Position numbers and translations under genes: made by a program | The notes under the pieces: generated by a model | Databases searched by the model: none | Seen by the model: only the letters and a program-made list of their open reading frames with translations | Told to the model about the DNA's origin: nothing | NCBI GenBank assembly: GCA_964364265.1 | Contig: CAYILA010000003.1 | Coordinates: 19,959 to 83,958, forward strand | Reading direction: 5' to 3' | Source of the DNA: an uncultured Candidatus Saccharibacteria bacterium | GTDB lineage: Bacteria; Patescibacteriota; UBA1384; XYA2-FULL-43-10; 1-14-0-10-43-13 | Length of the DNA stretch: 64,000 bases | Shown: positions 7,847 to 45,200 of the stretch, in pieces | Numbering within the stretch: the stretch's first letter is position 1 | Layout: every line of letters starts with the position of its first letter

Positions 7847-9013
7847 TTACTCGATTGTTACGGTTGACTCGGGAGGAACCACCGCTATCCAAAACTGTCC
7901 GCGATTGAATTTGATTTCGCTGCCGGCAGAATCGTAAAATATCTCGCGATCGGTTTTAGAGTTTTTCTTCCAGGTGGCTTCGATCATGGTTCCGTTGTAA
8001 ATAATCTTAGCGGCACCGCTTCCGATCGTGGTCATTTCATAACCGGCTTCATTAATTCGAGTGATAGTCGCTTTTCTCTTTACGGTCATTACAATTATGT
8101 TTGTCGGATTAATTTGTGTTTTGGTAATTTGATCGACATGGGCTTTGTCGGCCAATGAGCGTTTGTAGGAATTCTTTGTTCTATCATAATCAAATACTGC
8201 CTTGTATTGATTGGTTGAAAAATTGATCGTTATCTTTTGAGATTGGGGCAAGGCAGTCTTTTGGCTGTCATCTATATCTTCGTTGAATTTGTAAACCGTA
8301 TAATTGTTGGCGGTGGAAAATTTCTTGTCGGAAGCGGTTTTGCGGAGCTTAACGGTCGATGTGAACATTGTATGCTCACTAGCTAAATTCTTTGTTCTTT
8401 CTCTCCAGTATGGACTTGGATTACTAAATTGATCCAGATCCAATACTTTTTCTTTTTGAATTTGATCAAGTGCATCAATGTTGCCACCGACATGAGCTAA
8501 ATAAGCATCATAACCGCGAGCCCAATCGACGAAGTAAGTTCTAGCAGATCGGATAGGACCGACTTTTTCTGCTTCAAAAGTACCAAAAATAGCCATGAAT
8601 CGGGTGATGCCGCCTTCGGCGATCGCTTCATAGATTATACTGGCTTTATCTAAGCCGGCTTGAGGACGGGCATCGGGATGGTTTTCAACTACGACAGCAA
8701 GAGGATGTCTTGCCGAGGATTCCTTGGTAGTCATAATTCCATCGAGGGGAGCTTGATAGATTAAATCATTCGTCTCTTCTGTCGTATTTGTATTTTCTGT
8801 CGGTGTGATATTATCCTTTGTTAAAAATCTTATTCCCAGATAGAATAAACTGATAATAATTAAACCGAGTACGATTAAAAAAACAAGCCGCTTTTTGGGG
8901 TTTGCAAAAAAATCCTTAATTCGTTCTTTAAGTTTTTTTCTAGGACCTTTATTATTGACTGTCACATTTTCATTATTTGATTCAGTAGCGGTCGTTGTCT
9001 CTTCTTCAGGCAT
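7847..9013 (-). CDS. Membrane-anchored DUF3048 (YerB-like) domain protein
   Basis: N-terminal TM helix. The block LAVVVENHPDARPQAGLDKASIIYEAIAEGGITRFMAIF is characteristic of DUF3048. Confidence 0.55.
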   Translation of the reverse strand: MPEEETTTATESNNENVTVNNKGPRKKLKERIKDFFANPKKRLVFLIVLGLIIISLFYLGIRFLTKDNITPTENTNTTEETNDLIYQAPLDGIMTTKESSARHPLAVVVENHPDARPQAGLDKASIIYEAIAEGGITRFMAIFGTFEAEKVGPIRSARTYFVDWARGYDAYLAHVGGNIDALDQIQKEKVLDLDQFSNPSPYWRERTKNLASEHTMFTSTVKLRKTASDKKFSTANNYTVYKFNEDIDDSQKTALPQSQKITINFSTNQYKAVFDYDRTKNSYKRSLADKAHVDQITKTQINPTNIIVMTVKRKATITRINEAGYEMTTIGSGAAKIIYNGTMIEATWKKNSKTDREIFYDSAGSEIKFNRGQFWIAVVPPESTVTIE

Positions 9014-23922: not shown

Positions 23923-25203
23923 CTATTCCTCCCTTAACGCTTTAACTAGATTCAGACGCGAAGCTCTCCAAGCCGGAATTACGCCTGCTACGATTCCAAG
24001 AATGAAGGAGAAAGCAATCACTTCTACAATAAAATTGGTATCGAGTAAAAATATCTCCGCGCCCTTACTTTCTAATTTATTATTAACCAAAACTATCATA
24101 ATAATACCCATACCAAGCCCGACTATCCCTCCGATCAGTCCTATCATGCCGGCTTCCAGGGTATACTCCCTGGCCACCGCGCCATCGGTCGCTCCGATTG
24201 CCTTCTTAATGCCTATTTCACGAGTTCGTTCAGAGATCGACATAATCATGGTATTGATAATTGAAAAACTTCCGACTATAAGCGCCAGAAGAGCGGCGCC
24301 GAGTATCACGGCATTAAACATAACCATGGCTTTGTCAATCTGTTCGCCCATGGATTTAGGGGATAAAACCGTAACTTTGTCTCCAAATTGATCCTTAATT
24401 CGGTTTGAAACTGTCTCCGAATCATATCCGTCCTTCCATGATACCGAGGCGCCGGTCGAAAGGTCCTCCATCTTGAATGTCTTGGCTTGTTGAAGTTGGG
24501 TTCTGATGTCGGCCGGCAGTTTTGCCATTGCGGCATCGGATGTCTGGGATGCCTTGTCGGATTGTTCCTTCAGAGAATTTAAGAATGGATTTGACAAAAC
24601 CAGCATCTCCCGGGCCGGGTTAATCGACATCATGGCAAAGCTGTCAGGACCGGTCATCGTTTTGTTCATTACACCCAAAACAGTAAATTCCTTGCCGCGG
24701 ATAGTAATTTTATCGCCGGCGCGGACTTTTTTGTCGGTAGCGATACTGATACCGAGAACAACTTGATCGTCTCTATCTCCTCTTTGAAGCATTCTGCCCT
24801 CTTTCATCGACAGAGTGGTCCAGTTGCGGTTTTGGAATGTTGAATTTAGGTCGTATCCCTCGATTGTCGGCGGCACGCCCATATTGAGGCTGATATTATT
24901 CGGATCCGGTTCGGCATACGGCAATTCTACTCCAGCGCCAACCGCCTCGACGCCTTCAACCTCTGCGATTTGATTTAATGTATCAAGCGGTAGAGTGTTT
25001 GTCGCGCTTGGTCCAAAACCGGCGCTACCTTTTGGCATAATTGTAATTTGACCGGTTATATATCTTTTTCCGCCATCAATCATCTTGTTGAATTTTAAGG
25101 CCAAGGAACCCATTACTGTAAAAGCAAATATCCCGATGGCGATGCCCATTATGGTCAAAAAAGTTCTAAATTTCCGGCGCCACATATTTCTAAATATTTC
25201 CAT
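23923..25203 (-). CDS. ABC transporter permease, FtsX/MacB family
   Basis: N-terminal TM, large periplasmic domain, and a C-terminal 3-TM FtsX fold. Confidence 0.85.
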   Translation of the reverse strand: MEIFRNMWRRKFRTFLTIMGIAIGIFAFTVMGSLALKFNKMIDGGKRYITGQITIMPKGSAGFGPSATNTLPLDTLNQIAEVEGVEAVGAGVELPYAEPDPNNISLNMGVPPTIEGYDLNSTFQNRNWTTLSMKEGRMLQRGDRDDQVVLGISIATDKKVRAGDKITIRGKEFTVLGVMNKTMTGPDSFAMMSINPAREMLVLSNPFLNSLKEQSDKASQTSDAAMAKLPADIRTQLQQAKTFKMEDLSTGASVSWKDGYDSETVSNRIKDQFGDKVTVLSPKSMGEQIDKAMVMFNAVILGAALLALIVGSFSIINTMIMSISERTREIGIKKAIGATDGAVAREYTLEAGMIGLIGGIVGLGMGIIMIVLVNNKLESKGAEIFLLDTNFIVEVIAFSFILGIVAGVIPAWRASRLNLVKALREE

Positions 25204-25322
25204 AAGACCTTTCCTTAATTCACTAATTGATTATTGCACAAATATTAAATTATGCAAGTCAGAAAATGTATACGACAACAAAAGAGAGTGTTTTTCAACT
25301 CTCTTTTTAGGAGGAAGATGGA

Positions 25323-25541
25323 CTATTTTTTGCGTCGCCAGATTCCAATTCTGTGAAAACTTCTTCTGGCTAACTGGGCGTGATTTCCCAATGTTCCGAC
25401 CGCTTTTTTGGTCGCAAGTCTCAAACTCTTATAACTTTCCCGCGCACATTCCCCTTTATATATCATTTTCTGTCGGCTGTACGGCGGACTGTTGACAAGG
25501 ACATATACCGGTTCTAGCCTTTGAAATAAATTATTTTTCAT
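25323..25541 (-). CDS. Hypothetical small basic protein
   Basis: 72 aa ORF between the anti-sigma-like gene and the ABC permease. No recognisable domain. Weak call. Confidence 0.25.
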   Translation of the reverse strand: MKNNLFQRLEPVYVLVNSPPYSRQKMIYKGECARESYKSLRLATKKAVGTLGNHAQLARRSFHRIGIWRRKK

Positions 25542-25656
25542 ATAGCTCCTTTTTTGAAAAGGTGCCGGCCGGCTGTTTGTCTCATTGTTTATGTTTTGAG
25601 ACTTTTATTGCCTCTTCACTGACTAATACGAAAATTAAAATATTAAGATTTCATAA

Positions 25657-26373
25657 TTATTTACAACCGGGATGATACTCAATCAGGGATTGGCTTTTAT
25701 AAACTGATTTAATCTTTTCCGGAATAATTTCAGCGTTGTTTTCAACTTTTCCGTAAACCATAACCATTTGACAAGAGCTGGCATAATTTAAAATGTTTCG
25801 ATTGTCGGTGTCCAGCAGCCACAACTGACCATTATAATCTTTGATGTAAATATTGTTCGCTTGCATGACGACACGCCCGACAATAAAGCCCTTTTCCGGT
25901 TCGATCAGATTATTTATTATCTTCTCTTCATAACTATCGTATATGGGCAAAGAAGCCGAACTGAATTTATCCAATATTAAACCGTAACCTCGAATCTGCA
26001 TTAAAAACGCCATCAGGATAATTATTGAAAATGAGAAAATAATCAAGCCCCTTCTTTCGATTCGATAGCCGCATCTTGTTTTCCTGATTATCCAGAAGAA
26101 TAGGTAGGACGAACAGACGAATACGGCAAACCAGAAATAAGGGGCGACAATTGTTAGATATTCCATCAAAGTAATATGGCCGTAATCCAAAATCTCCCAA
26201 TCGGTCTCGAAAATAATGCTGACAATTATTCCAAATGACAAAACCATAAAAAATATCGATATCAACGATATCGACCAGATGGCTTCTTCCTTCAAAGAAA
26301 AACACCAAGCGGGTGTCGGTTTGATTGATTTTGTTTTGATTTCCTTAAAAATTTTCGAACTAAGGTCTTTCAT
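25657..26373 (-). CDS. Putative membrane anti-sigma factor (partner of ECF sigma)
   Basis: Overlaps the 3' end of the sigma gene by 14 nt. Multi-TM N-terminal half and a soluble C-terminal domain. Function inferred from gene context only. Confidence 0.45.
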   Translation of the reverse strand: MKDLSSKIFKEIKTKSIKPTPAWCFSLKEEAIWSISLISIFFMVLSFGIIVSIIFETDWEILDYGHITLMEYLTIVAPYFWFAVFVCSSYLFFWIIRKTRCGYRIERRGLIIFSFSIIILMAFLMQIRGYGLILDKFSSASLPIYDSYEEKIINNLIEPEKGFIVGRVVMQANNIYIKDYNGQLWLLDTDNRNILNYASSCQMVMVYGKVENNAEIIPEKIKSVYKSQSLIEYHPGCK

Positions 26374-26941
26374 TTTTTGGGATTTGTTTTTCTGCCGCTT
26401 TTTTGAACAATTGCTTAGCCCTGTTTATCAATGTGGCGACAGTACCTTTTGGTTTCTTTAAAATATATGAAATTTCGTTATAATTTTTTTCCTCTAAATA
26501 TCTCAGCACCAAAACACTTTTATACTTTGGCTTTAAGGTGTCGAGAACTTTTGCGACACTCATCTTGGTTATCTCTGCTTCTGCTTCCTTTTCGAGGTTT
26601 GTTTGATCCGGAAGCAACTCAAAAATATCGAAATCCTCTTCAAATGATACTACGCTCGGTCTGGCTTTTATTTTTCGGTAATAAGAAATGGCTTCGTTGT
26701 GCGAGATTCTGTAAATCCAACTTGAAAACTTCTGATTTTTGTCGAATGAATTTAAATTCTTATATGCTTTAATAAACACTTCTTGCAAAATATCCTCGAT
26801 GTCTTCGTCGGAGGAGACCAATAATCTTCTGATATACCGAGACAACTTTCCCTCATACCTTTTCATAAGGTAAATATAGTATGAGTCGTCTTTCAATACC
26901 AGATCGATTAGTTTTTCATCACTAATGTTATTTATATTCAT
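26360..26941 (-). CDS. RNA polymerase sigma-70 factor, ECF subfamily
   Basis: Region 2 (FIKAYKNLNSFDKNQKFSSWIYRISHNEAISYYRK) and region 4 HTH (NYNEISYILKKPKGTVATLINRAKQ). Confidence 0.85.
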   Translation of the reverse strand: MNINNISDEKLIDLVLKDDSYYIYLMKRYEGKLSRYIRRLLVSSDEDIEDILQEVFIKAYKNLNSFDKNQKFSSWIYRISHNEAISYYRKIKARPSVVSFEEDFDIFELLPDQTNLEKEAEAEITKMSVAKVLDTLKPKYKSVLVLRYLEEKNYNEISYILKKPKGTVATLINRAKQLFKKAAEKQIPKNERP

Positions 26942-27069
26942 AAATCGTCGATTATCAACTTCGCTTTTAAGATACCATCTTGGAAAAATTAATCAAAGCC
27001 GCCGCACATTATATATAGTGTTTATTTATTGCCGGATTTCCAGTATCATATTGCCAAGAAAGGATAAAT

Positions 27070-28155
27070 ATGAATTATGCTGTAATTATGGCAGGTGGTC
27101 AGGGCACAAGGTTGTGGCCTCTTTCAAGAAAGAACATGCCCAAACAACTCCACCGTTTATCAAGCGATAAATCATTAATTCAGGAAACTGTTGGAAGATT
27201 GTTGCCCATTTTCAAACCGGACCAGATTTTTATTTCCACCACACCTGAATATCAGGAAGAGATTAATAATCAGTTACCGGAAATCCCAGCAAAGAATTAT
27301 ATAATTGAACCGGTCGCCATGGGCAACGCCGCCGCCTGCGGTTTGGCGACAATGCTGATAGCCAAAAAAGATCCGGAAGCGAATATTATTTTCTATCCCG
27401 CAGATCAATCTATTAAAAATGAAGAAAGATTTCAACAAACCTTGCAATATGCATTTCTTCAACTAAACCAACATCCGGATCATATAATTACAATTGGTAT
27501 TGAGCCGAACCGACCGGATACCGGGTTAGGTTATATCCAGATGGCAGAAGAAATCAATTTTGATAAGGAAAAGAATTTACGAATAAATAAGGTTAAATGC
27601 TTTGTTGAAAAACCGGATCAGGAAACTGCAGTTTCATATATCTCCTCGAGTCAATATCTGTGGAACGCTGGCATTTTTATTTGGCAGACAGATAATTTTA
27701 TCAAATTAGTCCAAGATCATCTTCCGAATATTTATTCGGTATTAAAAACTATTACAGATTCATACAATAGCGACAGGTATGATGATGTATTAAATAGTGA
27801 GTATCCCAATATTGAAAACATAACAGTTGATTACGGAATAATGGAGAAGACTGACAAGATTCTTGTGGTTCCGGGTGATTTTGGTTGGAGCGATATCGGC
27901 AACTGGAGCACACTATTTGAAATATTATCTGAAATAGAAGGAACCAATGTTGTATCGCGCGGAGAACATATCAGCATTGAGGATGAAAACTCAATTGTAT
28001 TTTCCGGTGAAAAGTTAATCGCAACTATCGGGTTGAAAGATATCGTGGTGGTAGACACTCCGGACGCCACTCTAATTTGCGACCGGAACCGAGCCCATCA
28101 AGTGAAAGATTTACTCAATAAATTAAAAGAAGAAGGCAAGGAAAATTATTTATAA
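27070..28155 (+). CDS. manC: Mannose-1-phosphate guanylyltransferase
   Basis: IMAGGQGTRLWPLS nucleotidyltransferase motif and a left-handed beta-helix C-terminus. Confidence 0.85.
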   Translation: MNYAVIMAGGQGTRLWPLSRKNMPKQLHRLSSDKSLIQETVGRLLPIFKPDQIFISTTPEYQEEINNQLPEIPAKNYIIEPVAMGNAAACGLATMLIAKKDPEANIIFYPADQSIKNEERFQQTLQYAFLQLNQHPDHIITIGIEPNRPDTGLGYIQMAEEINFDKEKNLRINKVKCFVEKPDQETAVSYISSSQYLWNAGIFIWQTDNFIKLVQDHLPNIYSVLKTITDSYNSDRYDDVLNSEYPNIENITVDYGIMEKTDKILVVPGDFGWSDIGNWSTLFEILSEIEGTNVVSRGEHISIEDENSIVFSGEKLIATIGLKDIVVVDTPDATLICDRNRAHQVKDLLNKLKEEGKENYL

Positions 28156-31423: not shown

Positions 31424-32247
31424 TTTGCTCCTTTTAGTTTTTCGATAAGAATGAGAAACATAAATTTTGGAATCGCCATTTGTCTAGCAATTCTTCTTGG
31501 CTCAATGATTAATCGAAATAACCACTCAAAGCCCAATTTTTGCAACCAGACCGGGGCCCGTGGTTTGATGCCGGCAACAAAATCAAACGAACCGCCCACG
31601 CCCATTCCGATGCGGCAACCGGTATGTTTTAGGTTGGCCGCCAACCACTTTTCTTGTTTTGGTGCGCCGTATGCTACAAATACAATATCGGCTTTGCTCT
31701 TTTTGATCGCTTCGACTATTTCCTCGGTATCCTTAATCGAACCGGAATGGACACCGACGACCCGAAGGTCCGGCAGATCGGTTTGAAGTTTGAGCGAGCA
31801 CCTTTCGGCCACCGTCGGTTCTCCTCCGACAAAAAATATCTCTAAACGATTTTTTGAGGCGTATTCTGATAGGTCCCAAATAAAATCAGAACCGGAGACT
31901 CTGGCTTTTATTGGTCTATTCCCTATCCTGGTGTAAACAGGCATGAATATTATTGAGAGAAACCAAACAGCCAAAAAATAGAAAAATGAAATATACTTAT
32001 CGAAAGCCGGTTTTGTATTTAAGTATTTGGCCGCCCAAATTAATCCGACTCCATCAGTAATATTTAAGGAAGAAGAATGATTTAAAATTTTGAATAATTC
32101 CCTGTCTTTTTGGGCTCTTGTTATTATTTCCGGATTTGGAGTGCAAATAATATGAGTTCCCGACATTGAAAAATCATGAAATATTTTTTCGTATTCCTTT
32201 TTCTCTATAGCATCTAATCTGATTTTTAAGATATTCACTCTATTCAT
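31420..32247 (-). CDS. WecB/TagA/CpsF-family glycosyltransferase
   Basis: IVFVAYGAPKQEKW and the GVGGSFD pattern of the TagA/WecG family. An internal hydrophobic segment is present. Confidence 0.8.
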   Translation of the reverse strand: MNRVNILKIRLDAIEKKEYEKIFHDFSMSGTHIICTPNPEIITRAQKDRELFKILNHSSSLNITDGVGLIWAAKYLNTKPAFDKYISFFYFLAVWFLSIIFMPVYTRIGNRPIKARVSGSDFIWDLSEYASKNRLEIFFVGGEPTVAERCSLKLQTDLPDLRVVGVHSGSIKDTEEIVEAIKKSKADIVFVAYGAPKQEKWLAANLKHTGCRIGMGVGGSFDFVAGIKPRAPVWLQKLGFEWLFRLIIEPRRIARQMAIPKFMFLILIEKLKGAK

Positions 32248-33334
32248 TTTCCAAACATTTTTTTATTTCGGAAATAAATACTTCTTCGGAAAACTTCTCG
32301 GCTTGTTTTCGACAATCTTTCGGTAAGATGTTCTCTCTAATCTTTTCCAATTGCTCTATCGCTTCATTTAAACTATCCGGATTATCATTTTCAAAGAATA
32401 CTCCGGTTTTCCCCTCGACAACCGTTTCGGTGACACCACCCTTTTTATATGCCACTACCGGAACTCCCGATGCCATTGCTTCAATGGGAGTCAGACCGAA
32501 ATCCTCTTCTCCGGGGAATATCAAGGCGATCGAATTTCTCATTTTTTCCACGACAACCCTGTCTGGTTGCCAGTCAAGAAATTCGATATTATTTTTCGCT
32601 AACTTTTTTAATCTTTTTTGATCCGATCCGATGCCTATAATTTTTAATTCCTTGTTATTTATGTTAAATGCTTTTATTGCCAAATCAATCTTTTTATACG
32701 GCTCTAACCTTGAAACCACCAGATAATAATCCCCGGTCTTGCCATCAGAAAGTGGAATATTTTTAATATCAGTTGGGGGATAAATCACTTTTGCATCTTT
32801 CCGGTAATACTTTTTAATCCGTTCGGCCGCCGTATTCGATTGAGCAAGCCAAAGATCGACTCTATCCGCCGAGACACGGTCCCAAATCCTGACATTTTTC
32901 AAAATATTTCTAATATATATCCCCTTAATTCCTTGGCCGATGTTGTGCTCATCCAAATATTCGTGGTACCAATCCCAAGCATAACGCATCGGCGAATAAC
33001 AGTAACAGATATGCTTCGTTTTCGGTTTGGTGATGACGCCGTGGGCAAATGAATTTGAGAAAGATAAGACGGTATCATACTTTGATAAATCAAATTCTTC
33101 AATCGCTTGCGGAAACCGCGGTAATAATAAGCGTGTCTTGCTTCTAATATTTCGGGGCAGTTTTCCGAGGGAGGATTGTGTGACATTATATTTTGAAAAT
33201 ACTTCTTTAGTTCCTTTTTCGTCATACAATAAAGTATAAAGATCAACATTTGGAAAATGTTTTAAGAATATTTGTAGCACTTTTTCAGCACCACCTAATT
33301 TAGTTAAAAAATCGTGAACCACCGCAATTTTCAT
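32240..33334 (-). CDS. Glycosyltransferase family 4 (GT-B)
   Basis: EEDFGLTPIEAMASGVPVVA E-X7-E motif. Confidence 0.85.
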   Translation of the reverse strand: MKIAVVHDFLTKLGGAEKVLQIFLKHFPNVDLYTLLYDEKGTKEVFSKYNVTQSSLGKLPRNIRSKTRLLLPRFPQAIEEFDLSKYDTVLSFSNSFAHGVITKPKTKHICYCYSPMRYAWDWYHEYLDEHNIGQGIKGIYIRNILKNVRIWDRVSADRVDLWLAQSNTAAERIKKYYRKDAKVIYPPTDIKNIPLSDGKTGDYYLVVSRLEPYKKIDLAIKAFNINNKELKIIGIGSDQKRLKKLAKNNIEFLDWQPDRVVVEKMRNSIALIFPGEEDFGLTPIEAMASGVPVVAYKKGGVTETVVEGKTGVFFENDNPDSLNEAIEQLEKIRENILPKDCRKQAEKFSEEVFISEIKKCLENE

Positions 33335-34392
33335 TCAGTACCTTCTTTAATAAAATCAATCAGTTGCTTTGCCGAATTCTGCCAATCAAAATCTTTTAAT
33401 CGTTGAAATCCATCCTTAATCAGTTTTTCTCTTTTAGCTTTATCGGATACAATTTCTTCCATTGCCTTTGCTATCTCACTCGGATCATCCGGATCGATTA
33501 AAATGGCAGAGTTTCCGGCGATTTCTTTCATTGCAGAACAATCAGAAGTTATTACCGGTAAACCAGTTGAGAAAGCTTCTAAAATTGGCATACCGAAGCC
33601 TTCATACAAACTCGGATAGACCAAGGCCGTAGCGTTATTAAATAATTGCTTGACCTTCTGATGCGGTTGATAACCCAATAATTTGATATCATTTTTGTAT
33701 TTAGAATTATCTATTTCTTTTAAAATCTCCCGGAAGCCGAAACCGGCCTTGCCTATCAATATTAATTTTCGCTTGTCGGGATTGCCGCATTTATATTCTT
33801 CAAAAGCTTTAACAATGTTAACAATATTTTTTCGTTTTTCAATTCTGCCGATAAATACAAAATCACCATAAAGATTGGATTTTCCACCGATATTTTCGTA
33901 ACCGCTATAGATTACTTTTATTTTATCCTGATTGATTTTGTATAATTTTATTAAATCTTTTTTAGTTGAATCAGAAACGGTTACTATCTTTGCTCCAAAA
34001 TTAATGTCTTTTTTAATAGCTCTGTTTTGTATGATCAGTTCGGTTTTGGTATATGCCTTCTTAAAGTACTTGAAAGCTAAGTCATGAATGTAGACTATCG
34101 AATTTTTTGGAGCAAAGCCGGGAATTTCGTTGCCAAAAACTATCAGAGCTTCCGGCTTGTCTTTGAACAATGCTAACGGCAAGCGAAATTTATGCCAAAA
34201 TTTTTTAAAAGGGATTATGATATTTTTAAAATTATCGCCTTGCAGTTCTTTGGCCAGCGGCACGCTTGAATAGAGAAAATACTCATTTTCCTTATCGATT
34301 TTTTTCAAACACAAAATCGTCTGATAAGCGACATTTTCTACACCGGTTTTATTTTCCAGCGAAGCGCTGGAAGCGTCAATGGCAATTTTCAT
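33331..34392 (-). CDS. Glycosyltransferase family 4 (GT-B)
   Basis: YEGFGMPILEAFSTGLPVITSD E-X7-E motif. Start set at the internal MKIAIDAS, which abuts the mreB stop. Confidence 0.8.
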   Translation of the reverse strand: MKIAIDASSASLENKTGVENVAYQTILCLKKIDKENEYFLYSSVPLAKELQGDNFKNIIIPFKKFWHKFRLPLALFKDKPEALIVFGNEIPGFAPKNSIVYIHDLAFKYFKKAYTKTELIIQNRAIKKDINFGAKIVTVSDSTKKDLIKLYKINQDKIKVIYSGYENIGGKSNLYGDFVFIGRIEKRKNIVNIVKAFEEYKCGNPDKRKLILIGKAGFGFREILKEIDNSKYKNDIKLLGYQPHQKVKQLFNNATALVYPSLYEGFGMPILEAFSTGLPVITSDCSAMKEIAGNSAILIDPDDPSEIAKAMEEIVSDKAKREKLIKDGFQRLKDFDWQNSAKQLIDFIKEGTE

Positions 34393-37493: not shown

Positions 37494-38270
37494 CTATCTC
37501 GGAGCCGGCAACTTATTGGAAGTACCAGTGTTTGTTTGTTTTTTATTTCCGGATGGATCGGGGTAAATTTGATCTGAAACGACAATCAGTCTTCGAAGGG
37601 TGGTGCCGATTGGTGTGCAAGTCATTAGAGTCAAGGTTGATTGGTTCTTGCCCTCTAAAACTGACAGATCGTTGGGCGTAACAGTTTTGATCGATGATAC
37701 TTTGTAGAGGTAATCCTTGTTTTGATATTTAAGTTGAACCACGTCTCCGACTGAAAGCTTATTCAATAGAACAAACACATTCTTATAGTTCCCTTTTGAC
37801 CACGGGTAGTCCGAACTGTGTCCGGTAATAAACACATTGCCGGATTCGCCGGGCAATGCCGTGCCATTCAACTGGATCAAACCGTTTGCTAAACCGGCCG
37901 TCACGGCGTCGGGGTTATTTTCAACCCGCCAAGTGACCGGCGCCAAAACATCAATCAGATCGATTTTTAGATGATTATCCGAAATATTCGGGATCAAAGA
38001 CTTATTTGTGTTTGTTATGGATGTTTTTGTCAGAGCGGAAAGCTCTGTAACTTTGGAGTTGTTTGAGTAATTTTGATTTAAATACTCGGTCTTATACCAA
38101 TAAGTTATATTGTCCAGTAATCCGGAGTAATTGATAAAGCCAAAAATTATCAGATACAAAAGAACGAAACTAAAAAAAAACTTCGTAAATGTTTTGAATT
38201 TACCGGGACTTTTCTTTTGGTGTGAAAAAAGTTTTTCCAGTTCCTTTTCATCAAAGTATTCTGTATCCAT
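37494..38270 (-). CDS. Sortase family transpeptidase
   Basis: N-terminal TM, NVFITGHSS catalytic His region, and TLMTCTP (TLxTC) active-site Cys motif. Confidence 0.8.
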   Translation of the reverse strand: MDTEYFDEKELEKLFSHQKKSPGKFKTFTKFFFSFVLLYLIIFGFINYSGLLDNITYWYKTEYLNQNYSNNSKVTELSALTKTSITNTNKSLIPNISDNHLKIDLIDVLAPVTWRVENNPDAVTAGLANGLIQLNGTALPGESGNVFITGHSSDYPWSKGNYKNVFVLLNKLSVGDVVQLKYQNKDYLYKVSSIKTVTPNDLSVLEGKNQSTLTLMTCTPIGTTLRRLIVVSDQIYPDPSGNKKQTNTGTSNKLPAPR

Positions 38271-38375
38271 ATTAGCGGCACCATTTTCTTAAAATAGTTC
38301 AACCCCTTTTTCAATATCGAGTTTTTGAATGATTTAAGTTTAAATTATTCCAGTAAATTTTTCAACAAAAAGTAA

Positions 38376-38414
38376 TTAAAGAATTTACCGCGAAGAGGTA
38401 AATTCTTTTTCGAC
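38376..38414 (-). terminator. Terminator hairpin downstream of the islet ORF
   Basis: AAAGAATTTACC...GGTAAATTCTTT 12-bp inverted repeat followed by a T-rich run on the minus strand. Confidence 0.5.
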
Positions 38415-38478
38415 AAAAAAAGGGCGCCCGCTGATCAAAACTCAATGAGTTTGATTAGGCAGACGCCTTTGTGTGATG

Positions 38479-39657
38479 TTACCGTGATAACTGTTTGCCG
38501 CAGAGAACCTGGGCTAGCTCGGCAAGCGACCTGCCACGGAGATACCGATCGCTGATCTCCATTGCTGCTGTTGAAGCAGTGATGAAATCAGCTTCTTCTT
38601 GCGAGATTTCTGCGATACAAGCGAGTGCGGAATAGATATCTGTTTCATCTGTGGTGCTCTCGAGAAGTATCGCGAAGTCATTCCGATCTCGCGTAATCCG
38701 ACAGAGCTCCATGAAAAGCGAATCAACGCTCTCTGGATTTGACAGAAGGGCTTCTCGAGCAACTGTGATATCGCTCTGGTCAGCGCTGATTTTGGCGAGT
38801 GCGAGAAGGTTAAAGTACCTTCTGAAATCCGCCGACCATCCCTTTTCAATTTCTTGAACTGGGATAGCCGTTATTTCAGCTCTTGCTCTTGCGATATCCC
38901 GAGGGTCACGAGTAGCTTTGGCGATCTTGAGCCAATGTTCCCACGGCTCGCAATCGAATCTCTCTGCGATAGCGCGAGCTGCCAGGATGTCTTCATTTGC
39001 CTGGCTAAACTCGTAAACAGCGAGGTATTCCGAGAGTTGGTAGCAGGGAACCTTTTCCTTGGCTGCCATTTTCCGCGCTTCATCAATCTTGCCCATCGCC
39101 GCCGTGGCTCGTACGCGTATGACGCGCACCACACCTTGTTTGTATGATTGCCGAACAATCCGATCAGCCAGTTTCCTGACCATGTCGGGTTGTGATGTTT
39201 CGGCTATCGTTTCCAAAACGACGAACATGGCGATCTGGCGCTGCACCTTTTGCTCGTCCTCGTCTACATAATCGTCTTCGTCGCCAGTGGTCTTGGCAGT
39301 AAGCGAGGCAAGTTTCAAAGCGTATCCGAGATCTTTCTTTGCCCACCCCCTTATGATGCTCTGTCGTGCGAACACAGCCTCATCGTGGCCTTCAGGACTG
39401 ATCTTCTCGGCAATTTCCTCCGCAACCGCCAGATCACCCGCCAAGGCAAGCGCCTCGACGATGTCGGCTCGAACCTCATCAGCTTCGCTGGGACTCGGGT
39501 CGGAGCTTCTCGTGAGAACAATCCGGCAACCCAGAAAATCCCCGATAGTGTTCTTCCCCAAATGTTCAGCCCGCTGATGGACGATGTCGCCAACTTGGAG
39601 CATCGCCATCTCGATAAGCTCCTCAAACAACCTCTTCTTCCAAAGCAGTTTGTCCAT
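38479..39657 (-). CDS. Hypothetical alpha-helical repeat protein (HEAT/TPR-like) in a GC-elevated islet
   Basis: 392 aa, Ala/Glu/Arg-rich helical repeats, no catalytic motif. Local GC is clearly above flanks. Both strands are riddled with long overlapping ORFs, the signature of high-GC DNA. Confidence 0.45.
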   Translation of the reverse strand: MDKLLWKKRLFEELIEMAMLQVGDIVHQRAEHLGKNTIGDFLGCRIVLTRSSDPSPSEADEVRADIVEALALAGDLAVAEEIAEKISPEGHDEAVFARQSIIRGWAKKDLGYALKLASLTAKTTGDEDDYVDEDEQKVQRQIAMFVVLETIAETSQPDMVRKLADRIVRQSYKQGVVRVIRVRATAAMGKIDEARKMAAKEKVPCYQLSEYLAVYEFSQANEDILAARAIAERFDCEPWEHWLKIAKATRDPRDIARARAEITAIPVQEIEKGWSADFRRYFNLLALAKISADQSDITVAREALLSNPESVDSLFMELCRITRDRNDFAILLESTTDETDIYSALACIAEISQEEADFITASTAAMEISDRYLRGRSLAELAQVLCGKQLSR

Positions 39658-39860
39658 GATTTCTCCTTTTCAAGGTGCCGAAACCCTGACACAAATAATA
39701 GCACATATAGGCACCTCCGTCAAGTTTTGGGCGAAACTAAAACAGAACCTTTTTGCAAGATTCTGCCTTAAAAATCCTATGAAATTTTTCTACCAATTTC
39801 TAAAGACGACTCGATTTCTTTCGAAGCGAGGCGAACCTTTCAAACTTGCAATTTCCTTTG

Positions 39861-39944
39861 TGGTGCCGCGGGTGGGAATCGAACCCACACTCACGAGGAA
39901 CACGATTTTGAGTCGTGCGCGTCTACCAGTTCCGCCACCGCGGC
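39861..39944 (-). tRNA. tRNA-Leu (anticodon CAA), CCA encoded
   Basis: Cloverleaf: acceptor GCCGCGG/CCGCGGC, anticodon stem CACGA/TCGTG with loop CUCAAAA, 13-nt variable arm (type II), T-loop GTGGG-TTCGATT-CCCAC. Confidence 0.85.
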
Positions 39945-39967
39945 ACGTCGTTATTCTAACACAAATC

Positions 39968-40570
39968 CTAGCTTCGCTCAACCCTTTTTAATTCATCTCC
40001 GGTCATGTCGATAATCATTGAAGGAACCGGATTTTCCAGTTGGCCACCATCTACAATCAGATCAATATTGTTGAAATTTTCACCGAATTGCTCTCTCAAT
40101 TCGTCTATTGAAGTTATATTTCCACCGCCGGCTATATTTGCCGATGTTTGGGCGAGAACAAGCCCGCTTTCCCTAATAATTGATAATATCAAGTCGCTGT
40201 CGGGCACTCTAACTCCGATAGTGTCACCTTTCCGGCACAGATTAGATACGCCGTTGCCCGATTTTGATTTCAAGATAAAGGTAAATTTACCGGGAATTTT
40301 TTCTTCAATCAATAGTTTAGATTTTTCATCCAATACCGTGATATTGTTGATTTTATCAATCGAGTCAACGGCCACTCCGATCGGTTTTTCCGGACCTCTT
40401 TGTTTCAGGTCGATTATTCTCCTTACCGCTCCGTCGTTACAGGCATCGGCGCAAATTCCGTAAATCGTATCGAACGGTAAAACCGAAACACCGCCGGATT
40501 TAATGATTTCCGACGCTTTATTTATTACTTCTTCTTGGTTTTGGTCCAATTTTATAATATTATTGAGCAT
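39968..40570 (-). CDS. tsaC: L-threonylcarbamoyladenylate synthase (YrdC/TsaC family)
   Basis: YrdC fold motif VLPFDTIYGICADA, KQRGPEKPIGVAV. Start set at the internal ATG (MLNNII). Confidence 0.8.
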   Translation of the reverse strand: MLNNIIKLDQNQEEVINKASEIIKSGGVSVLPFDTIYGICADACNDGAVRRIIDLKQRGPEKPIGVAVDSIDKINNITVLDEKSKLLIEEKIPGKFTFILKSKSGNGVSNLCRKGDTIGVRVPDSDLILSIIRESGLVLAQTSANIAGGGNITSIDELREQFGENFNNIDLIVDGGQLENPVPSMIIDMTGDELKRVERS

Positions 40571-41695: not shown

Positions 41696-43282
41696 GTGTT
41701 TTTAGGCAGACAAAAAAAACCTGTTGTTCTTGTAATTTTGGATGGTTGGGGCGTCGCCCCGTCTTGGGGAGGCAACGCTATCTCTCAAGCCAATACCAAG
41801 TTTTACGACAAGGTCTGGCAACAAGCTCCCAAAACGACTCTATTGGCATCCGGTGAAGCGGTCGGCTTGCCGGTCAGCGCTCCGGGCAATTCGGAAGCCG
41901 GTCACCTCAATATTGGCGCCGGACATGTCGTCCATCAGGACCAGACTTTGATCGATGCCCAGATCGACAACCAATCCTTCTACAGCAACCCAAAAATCCT
42001 CAATGCGATCGAACACGCCACGCAACACAATTCAAACATTCATCTGATGGGTTTGCTCTCAAAAACCGGAACCCACAGTCATATCAAACATCTTTTTGCC
42101 CTTTTGACGCTGTTCAAAGCTAAAAATTTTAGCCGCGTCTTTATTCACTTGTTTACGGATGGTCGCGATTCCGATCCGATGTCCGGCATCGAAATGGTAG
42201 ACGAAGTCGAACACAAAATAGCCGAGATCGGTGTCGGTAAGATATCGTCAATTGCCGGCCGTTTTTATGCCATGGATCGAGACAACCGTTGGGGCCGTGT
42301 CGCCAGAGCATACAATCTACTAGTCAAGGGCGAGGGTAATATATTTGAATCTCCCAAGACCGCGATTACATCGTCTTACTCCCAAGGCATAACCGATGAG
42401 TTTATTGAACCTCGATTAATATCAAACAAAGGTCAACAGATTACATCGATCAAAAGCAATGATAGTATTATATTTTTCAATTTCAGAAGCGACAGAGCCA
42501 AGGAAATCACCAGAGCATTTTTAGATGAACATTTACCGGAGTTTCCGGATCGCATGAAGTTAAGCAATCTCTATTTTGCAACCTTTGTGATTTATGATGA
42601 TCACTTACTATCCGAACAGATATTTTCTCCCGAGAAGATCGTGTACCCGTTAGCCCGAGTATTATCGGAAAATAACTTGAAACAATTGCACATCGCCGAA
42701 ACTGAAAAATATCCTCATGTCACATACTTTTTAAATGGCGGGACCGAAAAACCTTTTCCGGGTGAAAGCCGCGCAATGATTCCTTCTCCCCAAAAATTCA
42801 AAACTTACGATTATGTCCCAAAAATGAACGCTCCTAAATTAACCGCTCTTATCGTATCCACAATCAAAAAAAACATATATGATTTTACAGTTGTAAATTT
42901 TGCCAATACTGATATGGTCGGACATACTGGCAATCTTGGATCAGCAATAATGGCGGTTGAGTGCGTTGACGAATGCGTTTCTAAGATTGCAGATGAAATC
43001 ATAAGCAAGGATGGAATAATGCTAATTGTTGGCGATCATGGCAATGTCGAGCAAATGATTAATCCCCAAACCGGGGACCCAGATACTGAACACTCAACAA
43101 ATCCCGTCCCTTTTATTATCGTATCTAATGACCCAACTATTAATAAACTAAAAATGCAAGCCGACGGAATATTGGCTTCCGTTTCACCAACAATGCTAGA
43201 TTTGATGCAGATTAAAAAACCGGCTGATATGAGAAACAATTCAATTATTATTAAAGAAATCAATGTCCCAATCGCTAAATAA
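41696..43282 (+). CDS. gpmI: 2,3-bisphosphoglycerate-independent phosphoglycerate mutase
   Basis: ILDGWG metal site, catalytic-Ser motif GNSEAGHLNIGAG, HLFTDGRD, VGDHGN. Confidence 0.95.
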   Translation: MFLGRQKKPVVLVILDGWGVAPSWGGNAISQANTKFYDKVWQQAPKTTLLASGEAVGLPVSAPGNSEAGHLNIGAGHVVHQDQTLIDAQIDNQSFYSNPKILNAIEHATQHNSNIHLMGLLSKTGTHSHIKHLFALLTLFKAKNFSRVFIHLFTDGRDSDPMSGIEMVDEVEHKIAEIGVGKISSIAGRFYAMDRDNRWGRVARAYNLLVKGEGNIFESPKTAITSSYSQGITDEFIEPRLISNKGQQITSIKSNDSIIFFNFRSDRAKEITRAFLDEHLPEFPDRMKLSNLYFATFVIYDDHLLSEQIFSPEKIVYPLARVLSENNLKQLHIAETEKYPHVTYFLNGGTEKPFPGESRAMIPSPQKFKTYDYVPKMNAPKLTALIVSTIKKNIYDFTVVNFANTDMVGHTGNLGSAIMAVECVDECVSKIADEIISKDGIMLIVGDHGNVEQMINPQTGDPDTEHSTNPVPFIIVSNDPTINKLKMQADGILASVSPTMLDLMQIKKPADMRNNSIIIKEINVPIAK

Positions 43283-44765
43283 AAATATAATTCTTTGCCT
43301 TACAGATGGTATTGGAATTTCTTCCGCTTGGCAGGGAAATGTTTTGAATATGGGCAAGTCAAATATAATCGGCCGCTTTCTTAAAGAATACCCTTCCGAA
43401 CTCCTAAAAACCGATATTGAAGGGATTACTAAAATCGGAAATCAGTTGGACACTAACTCGTCCTACCAAAGAATATTTACTGGAAAAAATGTCCTGCCGT
43501 CATATGACCGAATAAATAAATCGATATCGGATAGCTCCCATTATCACGATTTGTTTGAAATGCCGATCAAACATCATTCCTCGCTTCATCTGGTCGGCAC
43601 GCTATCGGCTGATAATTTTTATGGCTCGCAAAAACATTTGGAAGAGATACTAAAACAAGCTAAAGGAAGAGGAATATTTAATTTGAACATTCATCTTCTG
43701 ATTGATAATTCATTTAAAACGAAGGAGGAACTTCTTTCTAAATTACAGGAACTGGAGAACTTCACTACAAAAATAAAACTGGGGCGGGTCGTAACGATAG
43801 CCGGCCGTGACAATCTTCATCAAGATATCAATCTAAAATATTTCAAGGCCCTGCTTGCTTGTTTTGTCGGCGGCAAAACCAATAAATCCCTATCCCCTGA
43901 ACAGATAATTAATTTATCCGATAAAAAAGACGGTTTTTCAAAACTGGCTCCTACCTCAATTGTCGAGGACGGATATCAAAAAGGCCGAATTTCCGGATAT
44001 GATACTGTATTATTTTTTGACTATAACAATGATGATTATGATTATTTAATCAATAAACTTGTATTTGGCTCCGGTCTTTTCGGATTGAAAATCCCAAAGT
44101 CATTAAACATTTTCACTCTTTCAACCTCTAAAGTTGATAAGATAAAAAGCATATTTCCAGCCGAAAATAAAAAAGATATCTTTGACCAGATTTCAAGAGA
44201 CAATAAGATTGCCCTAATTTCAGAGATATCAAGATACGCTTACCTAAAACCCTTTACTGAAAATAATAAGATCGATCCGACATTTATTGATTATGAAAAC
44301 AATGAAAACAATTTTTATCTTAAACTATTGTCCGATCTTAAATCAAAATCAGAGAAGTACGAGTTGACAATTTTGGTAATTCCGACGCTTGATAATGCGG
44401 TTATCTCCGACTCAATGGAAAAAACCATTAAATCCTTAAATCTTTACTATCAATTTCTCGAGGATGTTGAAAAATACATTTTGGAAAAAGATTTATTATT
44501 CATATTGACTTCCAGTTACGGCAGAATTAATAACTTAAATAATAAACGAGATAATTTAATCTTGCCCAATTTTGATCCGGTTCCATTTATTGTCTTGTCA
44601 AAATACAAATCAGAAAGCGCTAATTTGCAAACCGAACCGGAAAATAGCATCGCTTCCAATTATTTAAATTTAAAACACGACATCTTAGATGTGGCGCCGA
44701 CCTTGCTTCAGATGTTTGGTTTGGATATTCCCGATAGTCTGACCGGAACAAGTCTCTTGAATTGA
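43263..44765 (+). CDS. Divergent iPGM-like paralog lacking catalytic Ser and metal-binding His/Asp (probable pseudoenzyme)
   Basis: Collinear with gpmI (LTDGIG, HLVGTLS, IAGRDN, PVPFIV, APTLLQMFGL). GNSEAGH is replaced by GNQLDTNSSYQ and VGDHGN by LTSSYGR. Overlaps the gpmI 3' end by 20 nt. Confidence 0.7.
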   Translation: MSQSLNKNIILCLTDGIGISSAWQGNVLNMGKSNIIGRFLKEYPSELLKTDIEGITKIGNQLDTNSSYQRIFTGKNVLPSYDRINKSISDSSHYHDLFEMPIKHHSSLHLVGTLSADNFYGSQKHLEEILKQAKGRGIFNLNIHLLIDNSFKTKEELLSKLQELENFTTKIKLGRVVTIAGRDNLHQDINLKYFKALLACFVGGKTNKSLSPEQIINLSDKKDGFSKLAPTSIVEDGYQKGRISGYDTVLFFDYNNDDYDYLINKLVFGSGLFGLKIPKSLNIFTLSTSKVDKIKSIFPAENKKDIFDQISRDNKIALISEISRYAYLKPFTENNKIDPTFIDYENNENNFYLKLLSDLKSKSEKYELTILVIPTLDNAVISDSMEKTIKSLNLYYQFLEDVEKYILEKDLLFILTSSYGRINNLNNKRDNLILPNFDPVPFIVLSKYKSESANLQTEPENSIASNYLNLKHDILDVAPTLLQMFGLDIPDSLTGTSLLN

Positions 44766-44803: not shown

Positions 44804-45124
44804 GGGCCCATAGCTTAGTTTCAGCCAGAGGCTGATCGTCCTCTGGACGAGGTAGGGGAAAATGAATTATGTATACTTTATGAAAAGTCTGCGTAACGGC
44901 AAGGTTTATGTCGGCAGAACGACGAATAAGCCTGACAAGCGAGTTTTGGAACATAATAATGGCAGTAATGTTTGGAGTAGACACAACAAACCTTTTGAAT
45001 TAATCTATTTTGAGGAATATTATTGTGAAATAGATTGTGCGAAAAGAGAAGCCTTCTATAAAACAGGAATCGGCAAGAAGGTGAAAAAGGCAATCATCGA
45101 AACGTTTATAACAGAATAATATAT
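44804..45124 (+). mobile_element. tRNA-associated insertion: 17-bp duplicate of tRNA-Ala 5' end plus GIY-YIG ORF
   Basis: GGGCCCATAGCTTAGTT at 44804-44820 is identical to the first 17 nt of the tRNA-Ala at 45125. The 304 bp between them carry a YhbQ-like GIY-YIG ORF. Confidence 0.55.
44862..45119 (+). CDS. GIY-YIG nuclease superfamily protein (YhbQ/UPF0213-like, 85 aa)
   Basis: VYFMKSLRNGKVYVGRTTNKPDKRVLEHNNG matches GIY...YVG.T.n..rR..eHn. A conserved Glu lies in REAFYK. Confidence 0.8.
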   Translation: MNYVYFMKSLRNGKVYVGRTTNKPDKRVLEHNNGSNVWSRHNKPFELIYFEEYYCEIDCAKREAFYKTGIGKKVKKAIIETFITE

Positions 45125-45200
45125 GGGCCCATAGCTTAGTTGGTAGAGCGCCTCCATGGCATGGAGGAGGTCAGGAGTTCAAGTCTCCTTGGGTCCACCA
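45125..45200 (+). tRNA. tRNA-Ala (anticodon GGC), CCA encoded
   Basis: 76 nt cloverleaf, G3:U70 Ala identity pair, anticodon loop AUGGCAU, T-arm AGGAG-TTCAAGT-CTCCT. Confidence 0.9.

What the first reader, a model, noticed from the sequence alone, without database searches (positions are those of the whole stretch)
38415..39860. GC-elevated roughly 1.4 kb islet abutting the 3' end of tRNA-Leu(CAA), encoding an alpha-helical repeat protein
Composition rises to about 50% GC or more between the sortase gene and tRNA-Leu. Both strands show many long mutually overlapping ORFs, the hallmark of foreign high-GC DNA. The only coherent ORF is a 392-aa all-helical Ala/Glu/Arg repeat protein with no catalytic motif, terminated by a 12-bp inverted-repeat hairpin (38376-38414). 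tRNA 3' ends are classic integration sites for genomic islands. No integrase remains, so this would be an old or decayed insertion, or a cargo remnant.
Basis: partly seen in the sequence, partly recalled or inferred. Interest (0 to 1): 0.6.

Follow-up and report, generated by a model that had tools for sequence, protein, structure and literature searches.

The report
Acquired orphan helical-repeat gene beside tRNA-Leu
A 1.6-kb GC-rich stretch between tRNA-Leu and a sortase gene in an uncultivated groundwater Patescibacterium is a real, horizontally acquired single-gene insert that encodes an intact TPR-like helical-repeat protein of unknown role, which is an ordinary kind of genome variation at a recurrent insertion hotspot.

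Summary
ORF 38479-39657(-) has 52.2% GC against 41.5% for the window. It is the most GC-rich 1.2-kb stretch in the 64 kb, and its GC1 and GC3 are the highest of 49 genes. Its codon choice is foreign (Leu CTC 0.36 vs 0.08).

Synteny shows an insertion. In relatives the sortase start lies right after tRNA-Leu(CAA): 25-41 nt in three genomes, and 150 nt or less in 27 of 40 metagenome loci. The window has 1590 nt there. Four other lineages carry unrelated cargo at the same junction, so it is a variable hotspot.

There is no integrase, no room for one, and no direct repeat of the tRNA end. The "decayed island" reading is therefore only partly supported.

The gene is not decayed. dN/dS is 0.15-0.23, and its promoter and flanking terminators are conserved.

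The protein belongs to a tiny orphan family (about 9 full-length members among 1.8 billion representatives). These members sit in different genomic contexts. The confident AlphaFold model is an acidic TPR/PPR-like alpha-solenoid with no catalytic signature, so it is probably a protein-binding scaffold.

Verdict: a new member of a known kind, of low to moderate interest.

The parts
39861..39944 (-). tRNA-Leu(CAA), the native gene that bounds the insert on its 3' side
   Evidence: ARAGORN and Rfam tRNA at 60.7 bits. Its closest sequences are the tRNAs of syntenic relatives L019, L033 and L021, which differ only in the variable arm.
39822..39860 (-). tRNA trailer (AGGAAATTGCAAG..GGTTCGCCTCGCTTCG); probably the start of the acquired DNA
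   Evidence: It is shared only with L022 (Staskawiczbacteria), whose tRNA-Leu is more distant (20 differences). It is absent from relatives with near-identical tRNAs. Partial similarity to the L006 upstream region begins here.
39731..39771 (-). Upstream insulating terminator: a 15-bp stem followed by a U-rich tail
   Evidence: Folding energy -15.7 kcal/mol, z -3.9. The same hairpin occurs in L006, with differences between the two copies in the upper stem that keep the pairing. L005 and L007 contigs begin within its U-tail.
39695..39723 (-). Own promoter: TTGACG, 17-nt spacer, TG-extended TATTAT
   Evidence: 10 of 12 consensus matches. TTGAC is aligned in the window, L001, L005, L006, L007 and L009.
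39658..39694 (-). Short 5' UTR with the conserved ..CACCTTGAAAAGGAG.. ribosome-binding region
   Evidence: Conserved in L005 to L008. No significant structure, z -0.6.
38479..39657 (-). ORF392: acidic TPR/PPR-like alpha-solenoid protein of an orphan family
   Evidence: Identical to NCBI MEK7096461.1, annotated as hypothetical. AlphaFold2 pLDDT 85, pTM 0.84. dN/dS 0.15-0.23. pI 4.9.
38415..38467 (-). GC-rich hairpin followed by U7, the likely terminator of ORF392
   Evidence: RNA fold of 38330-38490(-): -43.3 kcal/mol, z -5.8.
38378..38408 (-).
38271..38377 (-). AT-rich spacer with a promoter-like site for sortase (38337-38365) and a 9-nt inverted copy of the tRNA 3' terminus (38275-38283)
   Evidence: Promoter scan. 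The 9-mer has P about 3.5e-4 in shuffles, a post hoc test.
37494..38270 (-). Sortase, the native core gene that bounds the insert on the other side
   Evidence: Pfam Sortase, E 5e-23. Lies directly downstream of tRNA-Leu in relatives.

Best explanation
The roughly 1.5-1.6 kb between tRNA-Leu(CAA) and sortase is a horizontally acquired single-gene accessory cassette. It reads, in order: an insulating terminator, its own sigma-70-type promoter, a short leader, a 392-codon gene, and tandem terminators.

It sits in an interval between core genes that is a recurrent site of gene gain in this Patescibacteria clade. The donor was probably another organism of about 50% GC that carried the gene just downstream of its own tRNA-Leu.

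Arrival was most likely by recombination of taken-up DNA, anchored in the highly conserved tRNA gene with an illegitimate join on the other side. This step is inferred. Arrival by a site-specific integrase is less likely.

The product is a cytoplasmic, acidic TPR/PPR-like alpha-solenoid with no catalytic residues. It most likely works by binding a partner protein as an adaptor or scaffold. It is maintained by selection as a dispensable, lineage-specific accessory function.
For: Shown:
- Composition and codon usage are foreign. GC is 52.2% against 41.5%. GC3 is 0.555 against 0.43 +/- 0.04. Codon fractions (gene vs window genes): CTC 0.36 vs 0.08, ATC 0.63 vs 0.34, AAG 0.57 vs 0.28, CGG 0.32 vs 0.12.
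- Relatives show the empty site. In L012, L019 and L010 the neighbourhood MreB-MurA-PEGA-sortase-tRNA-Leu-Sua5 is kept, with 25-41 nt between the tRNA and the sortase start.
- Of 40 metagenome loci with the same linkage, 27 have a spacer of 150 nt or less. The window has 1590 nt.
- The site is a hotspot. Other lineages hold unrelated genes there: NDK-like (nucleoside-diphosphate-kinase-like), methylase plus partner, RibD_C/GrpB-like, GIY-YIG plus His-phosphatase, and a TrpR-like gene. These gene labels rest on sequence motifs I recognised, not on a family search.
- The family is tiny and scattered. There are 7 hits among 5.8e9 clusters and 19 hits among 1.84e9 representatives, 7 of them below 1e-30.
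- The four contexts that could be read are all different and share no partner gene.
- In distant members GC3 tracks the host genome: 0.30, 0.54 and 0.67 in genomes of 38%, 50% and 57% GC. In the window it does not.
- The cassette elements are conserved across homologues.
- dN/dS is 0.15-0.23.
- The fold is confident (pLDDT 85) and is a generic TPR/PPR/HAT-like solenoid. pI is 4.9-6.1 across the family, and there is no signal peptide, TM segment or LPXTG motif.
- The tRNA trailer is shared with the distant L022 and not with close relatives. This suggests the donor locus also followed a tRNA-Leu.
- From the literature: HGT and small islands, mostly between Patescibacteria, are reported for aquifer genomes (PMC12455944).
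Against: - No close relative of this genome is sampled. The best sortase identity is 52%, or 65% for a partial match. The insertion therefore cannot be dated, and a truly recent empty site cannot be shown.
- The hosts of the closest homologues (L005 to L009) are unknown because the contigs are 1.4-1.6 kb. No donor is identified.
- The recombination mechanism is inferred from absences (no integrase, no att repeat), from the shared trailer, and from general knowledge.
- Part of the GC excess comes from amino-acid content: the Ala/Arg/Asp/Glu richness raises GC1.
Confidence: 0.72

Rival explanations
1. Remnant of a classic integrase-mediated genomic island that inserted into the 3' end of tRNA-Leu. 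The integrase and att repeats were later deleted, leaving one cargo gene.
For: The insert starts immediately after the tRNA 3' end. A distant family member, P0008, begins 22 nt after tRNA-Pro in L030 and L031. So 2 of about 6 readable upstream contexts are tRNA-adjacent.
Against: There is no direct repeat of the tRNA 3' end at the distal boundary; only a 9-nt inverted copy is found. The whole 1590 nt is taken up by one compact gene unit, with no pseudogene space. The other cargoes at the same junction in other lineages show no integrase-sized ORF. There are no family hits in viral contigs, phages or plasmids.
Confidence: 0.15
2. A native, ancestral gene whose high GC simply reflects its Ala/Arg/Glu/Asp-rich repeat composition and which was lost from all sampled relatives.
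For: GC1 is raised by amino-acid content, Ala 13.5% against 6.5%. The gene is under purifying selection. No close relatives are sampled.
Against: GC3 and synonymous codon choice also deviate. At least 30 diverse relatives have the tRNA and sortase adjacent. Family members sit at unrelated loci. The family is extremely rare.
Confidence: 0.08
3. Assembly or binning artefact: a foreign fragment joined in silico into this MAG contig.
For: This is a MAG from low-coverage metagenomes (about 4x). Single-sample contigs break inside the ORF at 39375-39394.
Against: L113 spans iPGM-PGI-Sua5-tRNA-Leu and the ORF392 5' part. L114 spans the ORF392 3' part, sortase, PEGA and MurA. Both are 99.93% identical to the window, overlap by 20 nt and have similar coverage.
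Confidence: 0.03

Closest known systems
tRNA-adjacent genomic islands or islets (integrase type)
   Same: It lies directly at a tRNA 3' end, is compositionally foreign, is absent from relatives and carries an accessory gene.
   Different: It has no integrase and no direct att repeat. It is only 1.6 kb with a single gene. Other lineages hold unrelated cargo at the same junction that also shows no integrase-sized ORF.
Core-gene-flanked HGT hotspots (the concept of Oliveira, Touchon, Cury and Rocha 2017, recalled from my own knowledge) and HGT in aquifer Patescibacteria (PMC12455944)
   Same: The same interval between conserved core genes (tRNA-Leu and sortase) holds different accessory genes in different lineages. 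Many such hotspots lack mobile-element genes and are thought to turn over by recombination in the flanking core genes.
   Different: Only one side, the tRNA, is conserved enough at the DNA level to serve as an anchor. The recombination route is not demonstrated here.
TPR/PPR/HAT-type alpha-solenoids (e.g. MalT domain III 1HZ4, Ton1535 3ZPJ, designer PPR)
   Same: About ten helix-turn-helix hairpins with a period of roughly 34 residues form a solenoid. Weak profile matches to TPR_19 and to designer PPR, and to TPR arrays of STAND NTPases.
   Different: No Pfam or NCBIfam model reaches its threshold. It has its own repeat signature (hh.hA..[ST]...D[IL]..AR..A). It is acidic, unlike RNA-binding PPRs. 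It is standalone, with no NTPase or effector domain.

Membership tests
Integrase-type tRNA-targeted genomic island | A tyrosine or serine integrase gene (or its remnant) inside the element | tested here: not met
   The 1590-nt interval holds only ORF392 with its promoter and terminators. ORF392 has no Pfam, PHROG or PADLOC hit.
Integrase-type tRNA-targeted genomic island | A direct repeat of the tRNA 3' end (attL/attR) at the distal boundary | tested here: not met
   No direct repeat of the tRNA 3' end was found; the only match to it is a 9-nt inverted copy at 38275-38283.
Integrase-type tRNA-targeted genomic island | Present or absent relative to an empty site in relatives, with deviant composition | tested here: met
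   Empty junction in L010, L012 and L019 and in most of 40 metagenome loci. GC and codon deviation.
Core-gene-flanked HGT hotspot | The same interval between orthologous core genes holds different accessory genes in different genomes | tested here: met
   The tRNA-Leu/sortase interval carries ORF392 here and five unrelated cargoes elsewhere: L039/L095, L057, L096, L059 and L080.
TPR superfamily (Pfam clan CL0020) | Tandem helix-turn-helix repeats of about 34 residues forming a superhelix | tested here: met
TPR superfamily (Pfam clan CL0020) | A sequence match to a TPR model above its curated threshold | tested here: not met
   TPR_19 scores 15 bits against a cutoff of 25, E 0.03. NCBIfam gives nothing.
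PPR (RNA-binding pentatricopeptide) proteins | A PPR-model match and a basic RNA-binding surface | tested here: not met
   No Pfam PPR hit. The only match is to a designer PPR in the PDB, E 2e-5 over about 57 residues. pI is 4.9, net charge -17, and the whole family is acidic.
   No such hit even at E up to 10.

The most novel reading that the evidence does not exclude
The terminator-promoter-gene-terminator unit is a self-contained cassette that spreads among Patescibacteria without any recombinase of its own. It would preferentially land just downstream of tRNA genes (tRNA-Leu here, tRNA-Pro in L030) by homology-anchored recombination in the ultra-conserved tRNA sequence. The 9-nt inverted copy of the tRNA terminus at the far end would be a scar of that event. 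Its alpha-solenoid product would be a new class of accessory factor, for example in host-symbiont interaction or defence.
Probability: 0.1. Interest if true: 0.55.

Novelty: new member of a known kind. Interest (0 to 1): 0.27.

Why it matters
This is a clean, well-bounded example of single-gene acquisition in a streamlined, uncultivated Patescibacterium. It shows that the tRNA-Leu(CAA)/sortase junction is a recurrent gene-gain hotspot across the clade and that the inserts show no integrase. This fits with DNA uptake and recombination, rather than integrative elements, shaping these tiny genomes. It also flags a very rare, unannotated TPR-like protein family with a confident predicted fold. None of this overturns current ideas, and the function of the protein remains open.

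Tried and rejected
- Family searches found nothing significant for ORF392: Pfam, PHROGs, PADLOC and NCBIfam.
- The PDB sequence profile gave only a weak designer-PPR hit.
- Rfam over 38200-40000 found only the tRNA. The antisense 'Plastid-ycf2' hit is the tRNA read backwards.
- The search for att-like direct repeats was negative.
- Searches of IMG/VR, phage and plasmid collections found no relatives, so there is no evidence for a viral or plasmid vehicle.
- A mosaic tRNA, with its 3' end replaced by an element, was rejected. The tRNA matches those of syntenic relatives except in the variable arm.
- A metal site was considered because three Cys are invariant among the closer members. It was rejected because they are not conserved in P0008 and P0009.
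- A structured or riboswitch-like leader was rejected: z -0.6.
- The look-up of fragment P0010 for upstream context was not on record.
- An early impression that homologues are high-GC genes inside low-GC genomes was withdrawn. Their flanks are only 100-270 nt of intergenic DNA.

Full report
**1. The observation**

The window is from a Patescibacteria MAG. The ORF product is identical to NCBI MEK7096461.1, 'hypothetical protein AAB881_00710'. Contigs L113 and L114, which are 99.93% identical to the window, come from the Hainich aquifer.

- GC in 400-nt windows climbs to 0.49-0.55 between 38400 and 39800, against 0.30-0.40 on either side.
- The 392-codon ORF at 38479-39657(-) is 52.2% GC against a window mean of 41.5%. 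It is the maximum of all 1179-nt windows, z about 3.5.
- GC1 (0.608) and GC3 (0.555) are each the highest of 49 long ORFs, z 2.9 and 2.8.
- Synonymous codon choice departs strongly from the window's genes. The fractions (gene vs window genes) are Leu CTC 0.36 vs 0.08, TTA 0.03 vs 0.25, Ile ATC 0.63 vs 0.34, Lys AAG 0.57 vs 0.28 and Arg CGG 0.32 vs 0.12.
- The KL divergence is 0.161 nats per codon. That is third of 49 genes and the highest among genes over 250 codons.
- tRNA-Leu(CAA) is at 39861-39944(-).
- The overlapping spurious ORFs exist: 10 of 60 aa or more.
- The 12-bp hairpin is at 38378-38408.
One addition: a GC-rich hairpin followed by U7 at 38415-38467 directly follows the stop codon.

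**2. It is an insertion at a recurrent hotspot**

- The neighbours are core genes: MreB, MurA, a PEGA-domain protein and sortase on one side, and Sua5/YrdC, bacterial PGI and two iPGM paralogues on the other.
- A search of GTDB species genomes for the tRNA-Leu 3' end gave 20 loci.
- Three of these loci (L010, L012, L019) keep the gene order MreB-MurA-PEGA-sortase-tRNA-Leu-Sua5 (L012 adds PGI and iPGM). In them the sortase start codon lies 25, 41 and 39 nt after the tRNA, and ORF392 is absent.
- A metagenome scan with a sortase profile returned 80 loci.
- Forty of the 80 loci have tRNA-Leu(CAA) on the same strand upstream. The spacer is 150 nt or less in 27, 151-600 nt in 9, and 0.9-2.9 kb in 4. 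The window has 1590 nt.
- The long spacers carry unrelated genes. From motif reading, not family searches, these are: an NDK-like gene (L039, L095), a methylase-like gene plus partner (L057), RibD_C-like and GrpB-like genes (L096), a GIY-YIG-like gene plus a histidine phosphatase (L059), and a small TrpR/YerC-like gene (L080).
- None of the 80 loci encodes an ORF392 relative.
- The tRNA itself is native-like. It differs from those of L019, L033 and L021 only in the variable arm.

**3. No signs of site-specific integration**

- There is no direct repeat of the tRNA 3' end at the sortase side.
- The interval has no room for an integrase remnant.
- The family is absent from IMG/VR, phage and plasmid collections.
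- Two small oddities remain:
  - A 9-nt inverted copy of the tRNA terminus (GCGGCACCA, 38275-38283) lies 5 nt before the sortase start. Shuffles give P about 3.5e-4, but the test is post hoc.
  - The 39-41 nt directly after the tRNA are shared with L022, a Staskawiczbacterium. L022's tRNA-Leu is more distant and its downstream genes are unrelated. Relatives with near-identical tRNAs have other trailers.
- The shared trailer suggests the acquired DNA begins right at the tRNA end and came from a locus that also followed a tRNA-Leu.
- That fits recombination anchored in the conserved tRNA. This is an inference and is not shown.

**4. Anatomy of the cassette (minus strand)**

- Trailer, 39860-39822.
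- A 15-bp terminator hairpin with a U-rich tail, 39771-39731. Folding z is -3.9. The same hairpin occurs in L006, where differences in the upper stem keep the pairing.
- Promoter TTGACG, 17-nt spacer, TG-extended TATTAT, 39723-39695. TTGAC is conserved in the homologues.
- A short leader with the conserved CACCTTGAAAAGGAG.
- ORF392.
- Two terminator hairpins.
- An AT-rich spacer with a promoter-like site for sortase.

**5. The gene is functional, rare and scattered**

- dN/dS against the closest homologues (64-74% amino-acid identity) is 0.15-0.23.
- A word-indexed search of 5.8e9 clusters found only 6 homologues.
- An exhaustive profile search of 1.84e9 representatives found 19 hits, 7 of them below 1e-30. 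It added two divergent full-length members, P0008 and P0009.
- The contexts all differ:
  - L001 lies next to F420-ligase-like, SHMT, DUF2914 and ArgRS genes.
  - L030 lies 22 nt after a tRNA-Arg/tRNA-Pro pair.
  - L032 lies in a sugar-nucleotide and glycosyltransferase region of a 57% GC genome.
- In these three, gene GC3 (0.54, 0.30, 0.67) follows the host genome GC (50%, 38%, 57%). The window copy is not ameliorated.
- The hosts of the closest homologues (L005 to L009) are unknown because the contigs are 1.4-1.6 kb.

**6. The protein**

- AlphaFold2 with the 7-sequence alignment gave pLDDT 85.4 and pTM 0.84. The model has a long N-terminal helix, one beta-hairpin (absent in P0007 and P0008) and about ten helical hairpins.
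- Foldseek's best PDB hit is MalT domain III, E 4e-4, TM 0.31.
- Profile hits beyond the family fall on TPR arrays of STAND NTPases and on uncharacterised repeat proteins that share the motif hh.hA..[ST]..D..D[IL]..AR..A.
- No residue pattern suggests catalysis or metal binding. The family-wide invariant residues are the repeat positions.
- All members are acidic, pI 4.9-6.1. None has a signal peptide-like or TM segment, or an LPXTG motif.
- The best-supported mode of action is therefore a cytoplasmic protein-binding adaptor. RNA binding in the manner of PPR proteins is unlikely.
- The partner is unknown, and no conserved neighbour hints at one.

**7. Comparison with known systems and verdict**

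- The locus behaves like a tRNA-adjacent islet or HGT hotspot.
- It fails two defining tests of an integrase-type island (integrase, att repeat) and meets the hotspot definition.
- HGT of single genes and small islands among aquifer Patescibacteria is already documented (PMC12455944).
- The protein is structurally a TPR-like solenoid but reaches no curated family threshold.
- Overall it is a new member of a known kind, with low to moderate interest.
- The most novel reading not excluded is a recombinase-free cassette that homes to tRNA flanks. It rests on two tRNA-adjacent contexts, a shared trailer and a 9-nt inverted repeat, and I rate it at about 10%.

Noticed in passing
window 38275-38283 and 39861-39869: A 9-nt inverted copy of the tRNA-Leu 3' terminus (GCGGCACCA / TGGTGCCGC) brackets the whole 1.59-kb insert, 5 nt upstream of the sortase start codon. 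Shuffle P is about 3.5e-4 for that 9-mer, but the test was post hoc.
   Followed up: partly
window 39822-39860; L022 4100-4140: About 40 nt immediately after tRNA-Leu (AGGAAATTGCAAG..GGTTCGCCTCGCTTCG) are shared with a Staskawiczbacteria genome. That genome has a more divergent tRNA-Leu and unrelated downstream genes. Closer relatives do not share this trailer.
   Followed up: partly
L028 (JAJDCE010000123.1) 35-190: The tRNA-Leu 3' end CCACCCGCGGCACCA is repeated 116 nt downstream as a direct repeat. It could be an att-like scar or an intron-related duplication.
   Followed up: no
L011 (PEZW01000018.1) 7894-8000: The sequence just after tRNA-Leu looks like a second Leu-like tRNA (CTCAAAATCG anticodon-loop region) interrupted by palindromic inserts.
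   Followed up: no
L057 2307-4703; L022 5045-6588: Probable restriction-modification gene pairs lie downstream of tRNA-Leu(CAA) in other Patescibacteria. In L057 the pair sits exactly in the tRNA-Leu/sortase junction.
   Followed up: partly
window ~44862-45119 (+), next to tRNA-Ala(GGC) 45125-45200: An 85-aa GIY-YIG gene (Pfam call on the 99.9%-identical L113) ends just before tRNA-Ala. A GIY-YIG-like 76-aa ORF also follows tRNA-Leu in L059. Small GIY-YIG genes seem to sit beside tRNAs in this group.
   Followed up: no
window 41696-43282 and 43263-44765: Two tandem iPGM paralogues. The second is divergent: it matches only iPGM_N, with no Metalloenzyme domain hit. The arrangement is conserved in relatives (L012, L018, L021).
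   Followed up: no
L113 / L114 against window 39375-39394: Single-sample Hainich contigs of the same population (99.93% identity) both end inside ORF392 and overlap by 20 nt. Several of the few mismatches cluster at that break. This could be low coverage or strain microdiversity in the gene.
   Followed up: partly
L006 1500-1600; L007 1370-1470; L005 3' end; L001 ~1470: Downstream of the homologues lies a conserved block (TTTCAATGTACAAAC..TTGCAAAAACAAAT). In L006 and L007 it has a 14-nt perfect inverted repeat (TTGCAAAAACAAAT / ATTTGTTTTTGCAA). The window copy lacks this block. It may be a promoter or operator of the next gene in those genomes.
   Followed up: no
window 25000-28000, 32000-34200, 44000-44600: Low-GC stretches (0.30-0.37) that deviate from the window mean in the opposite direction to the islet.
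   Followed up: no
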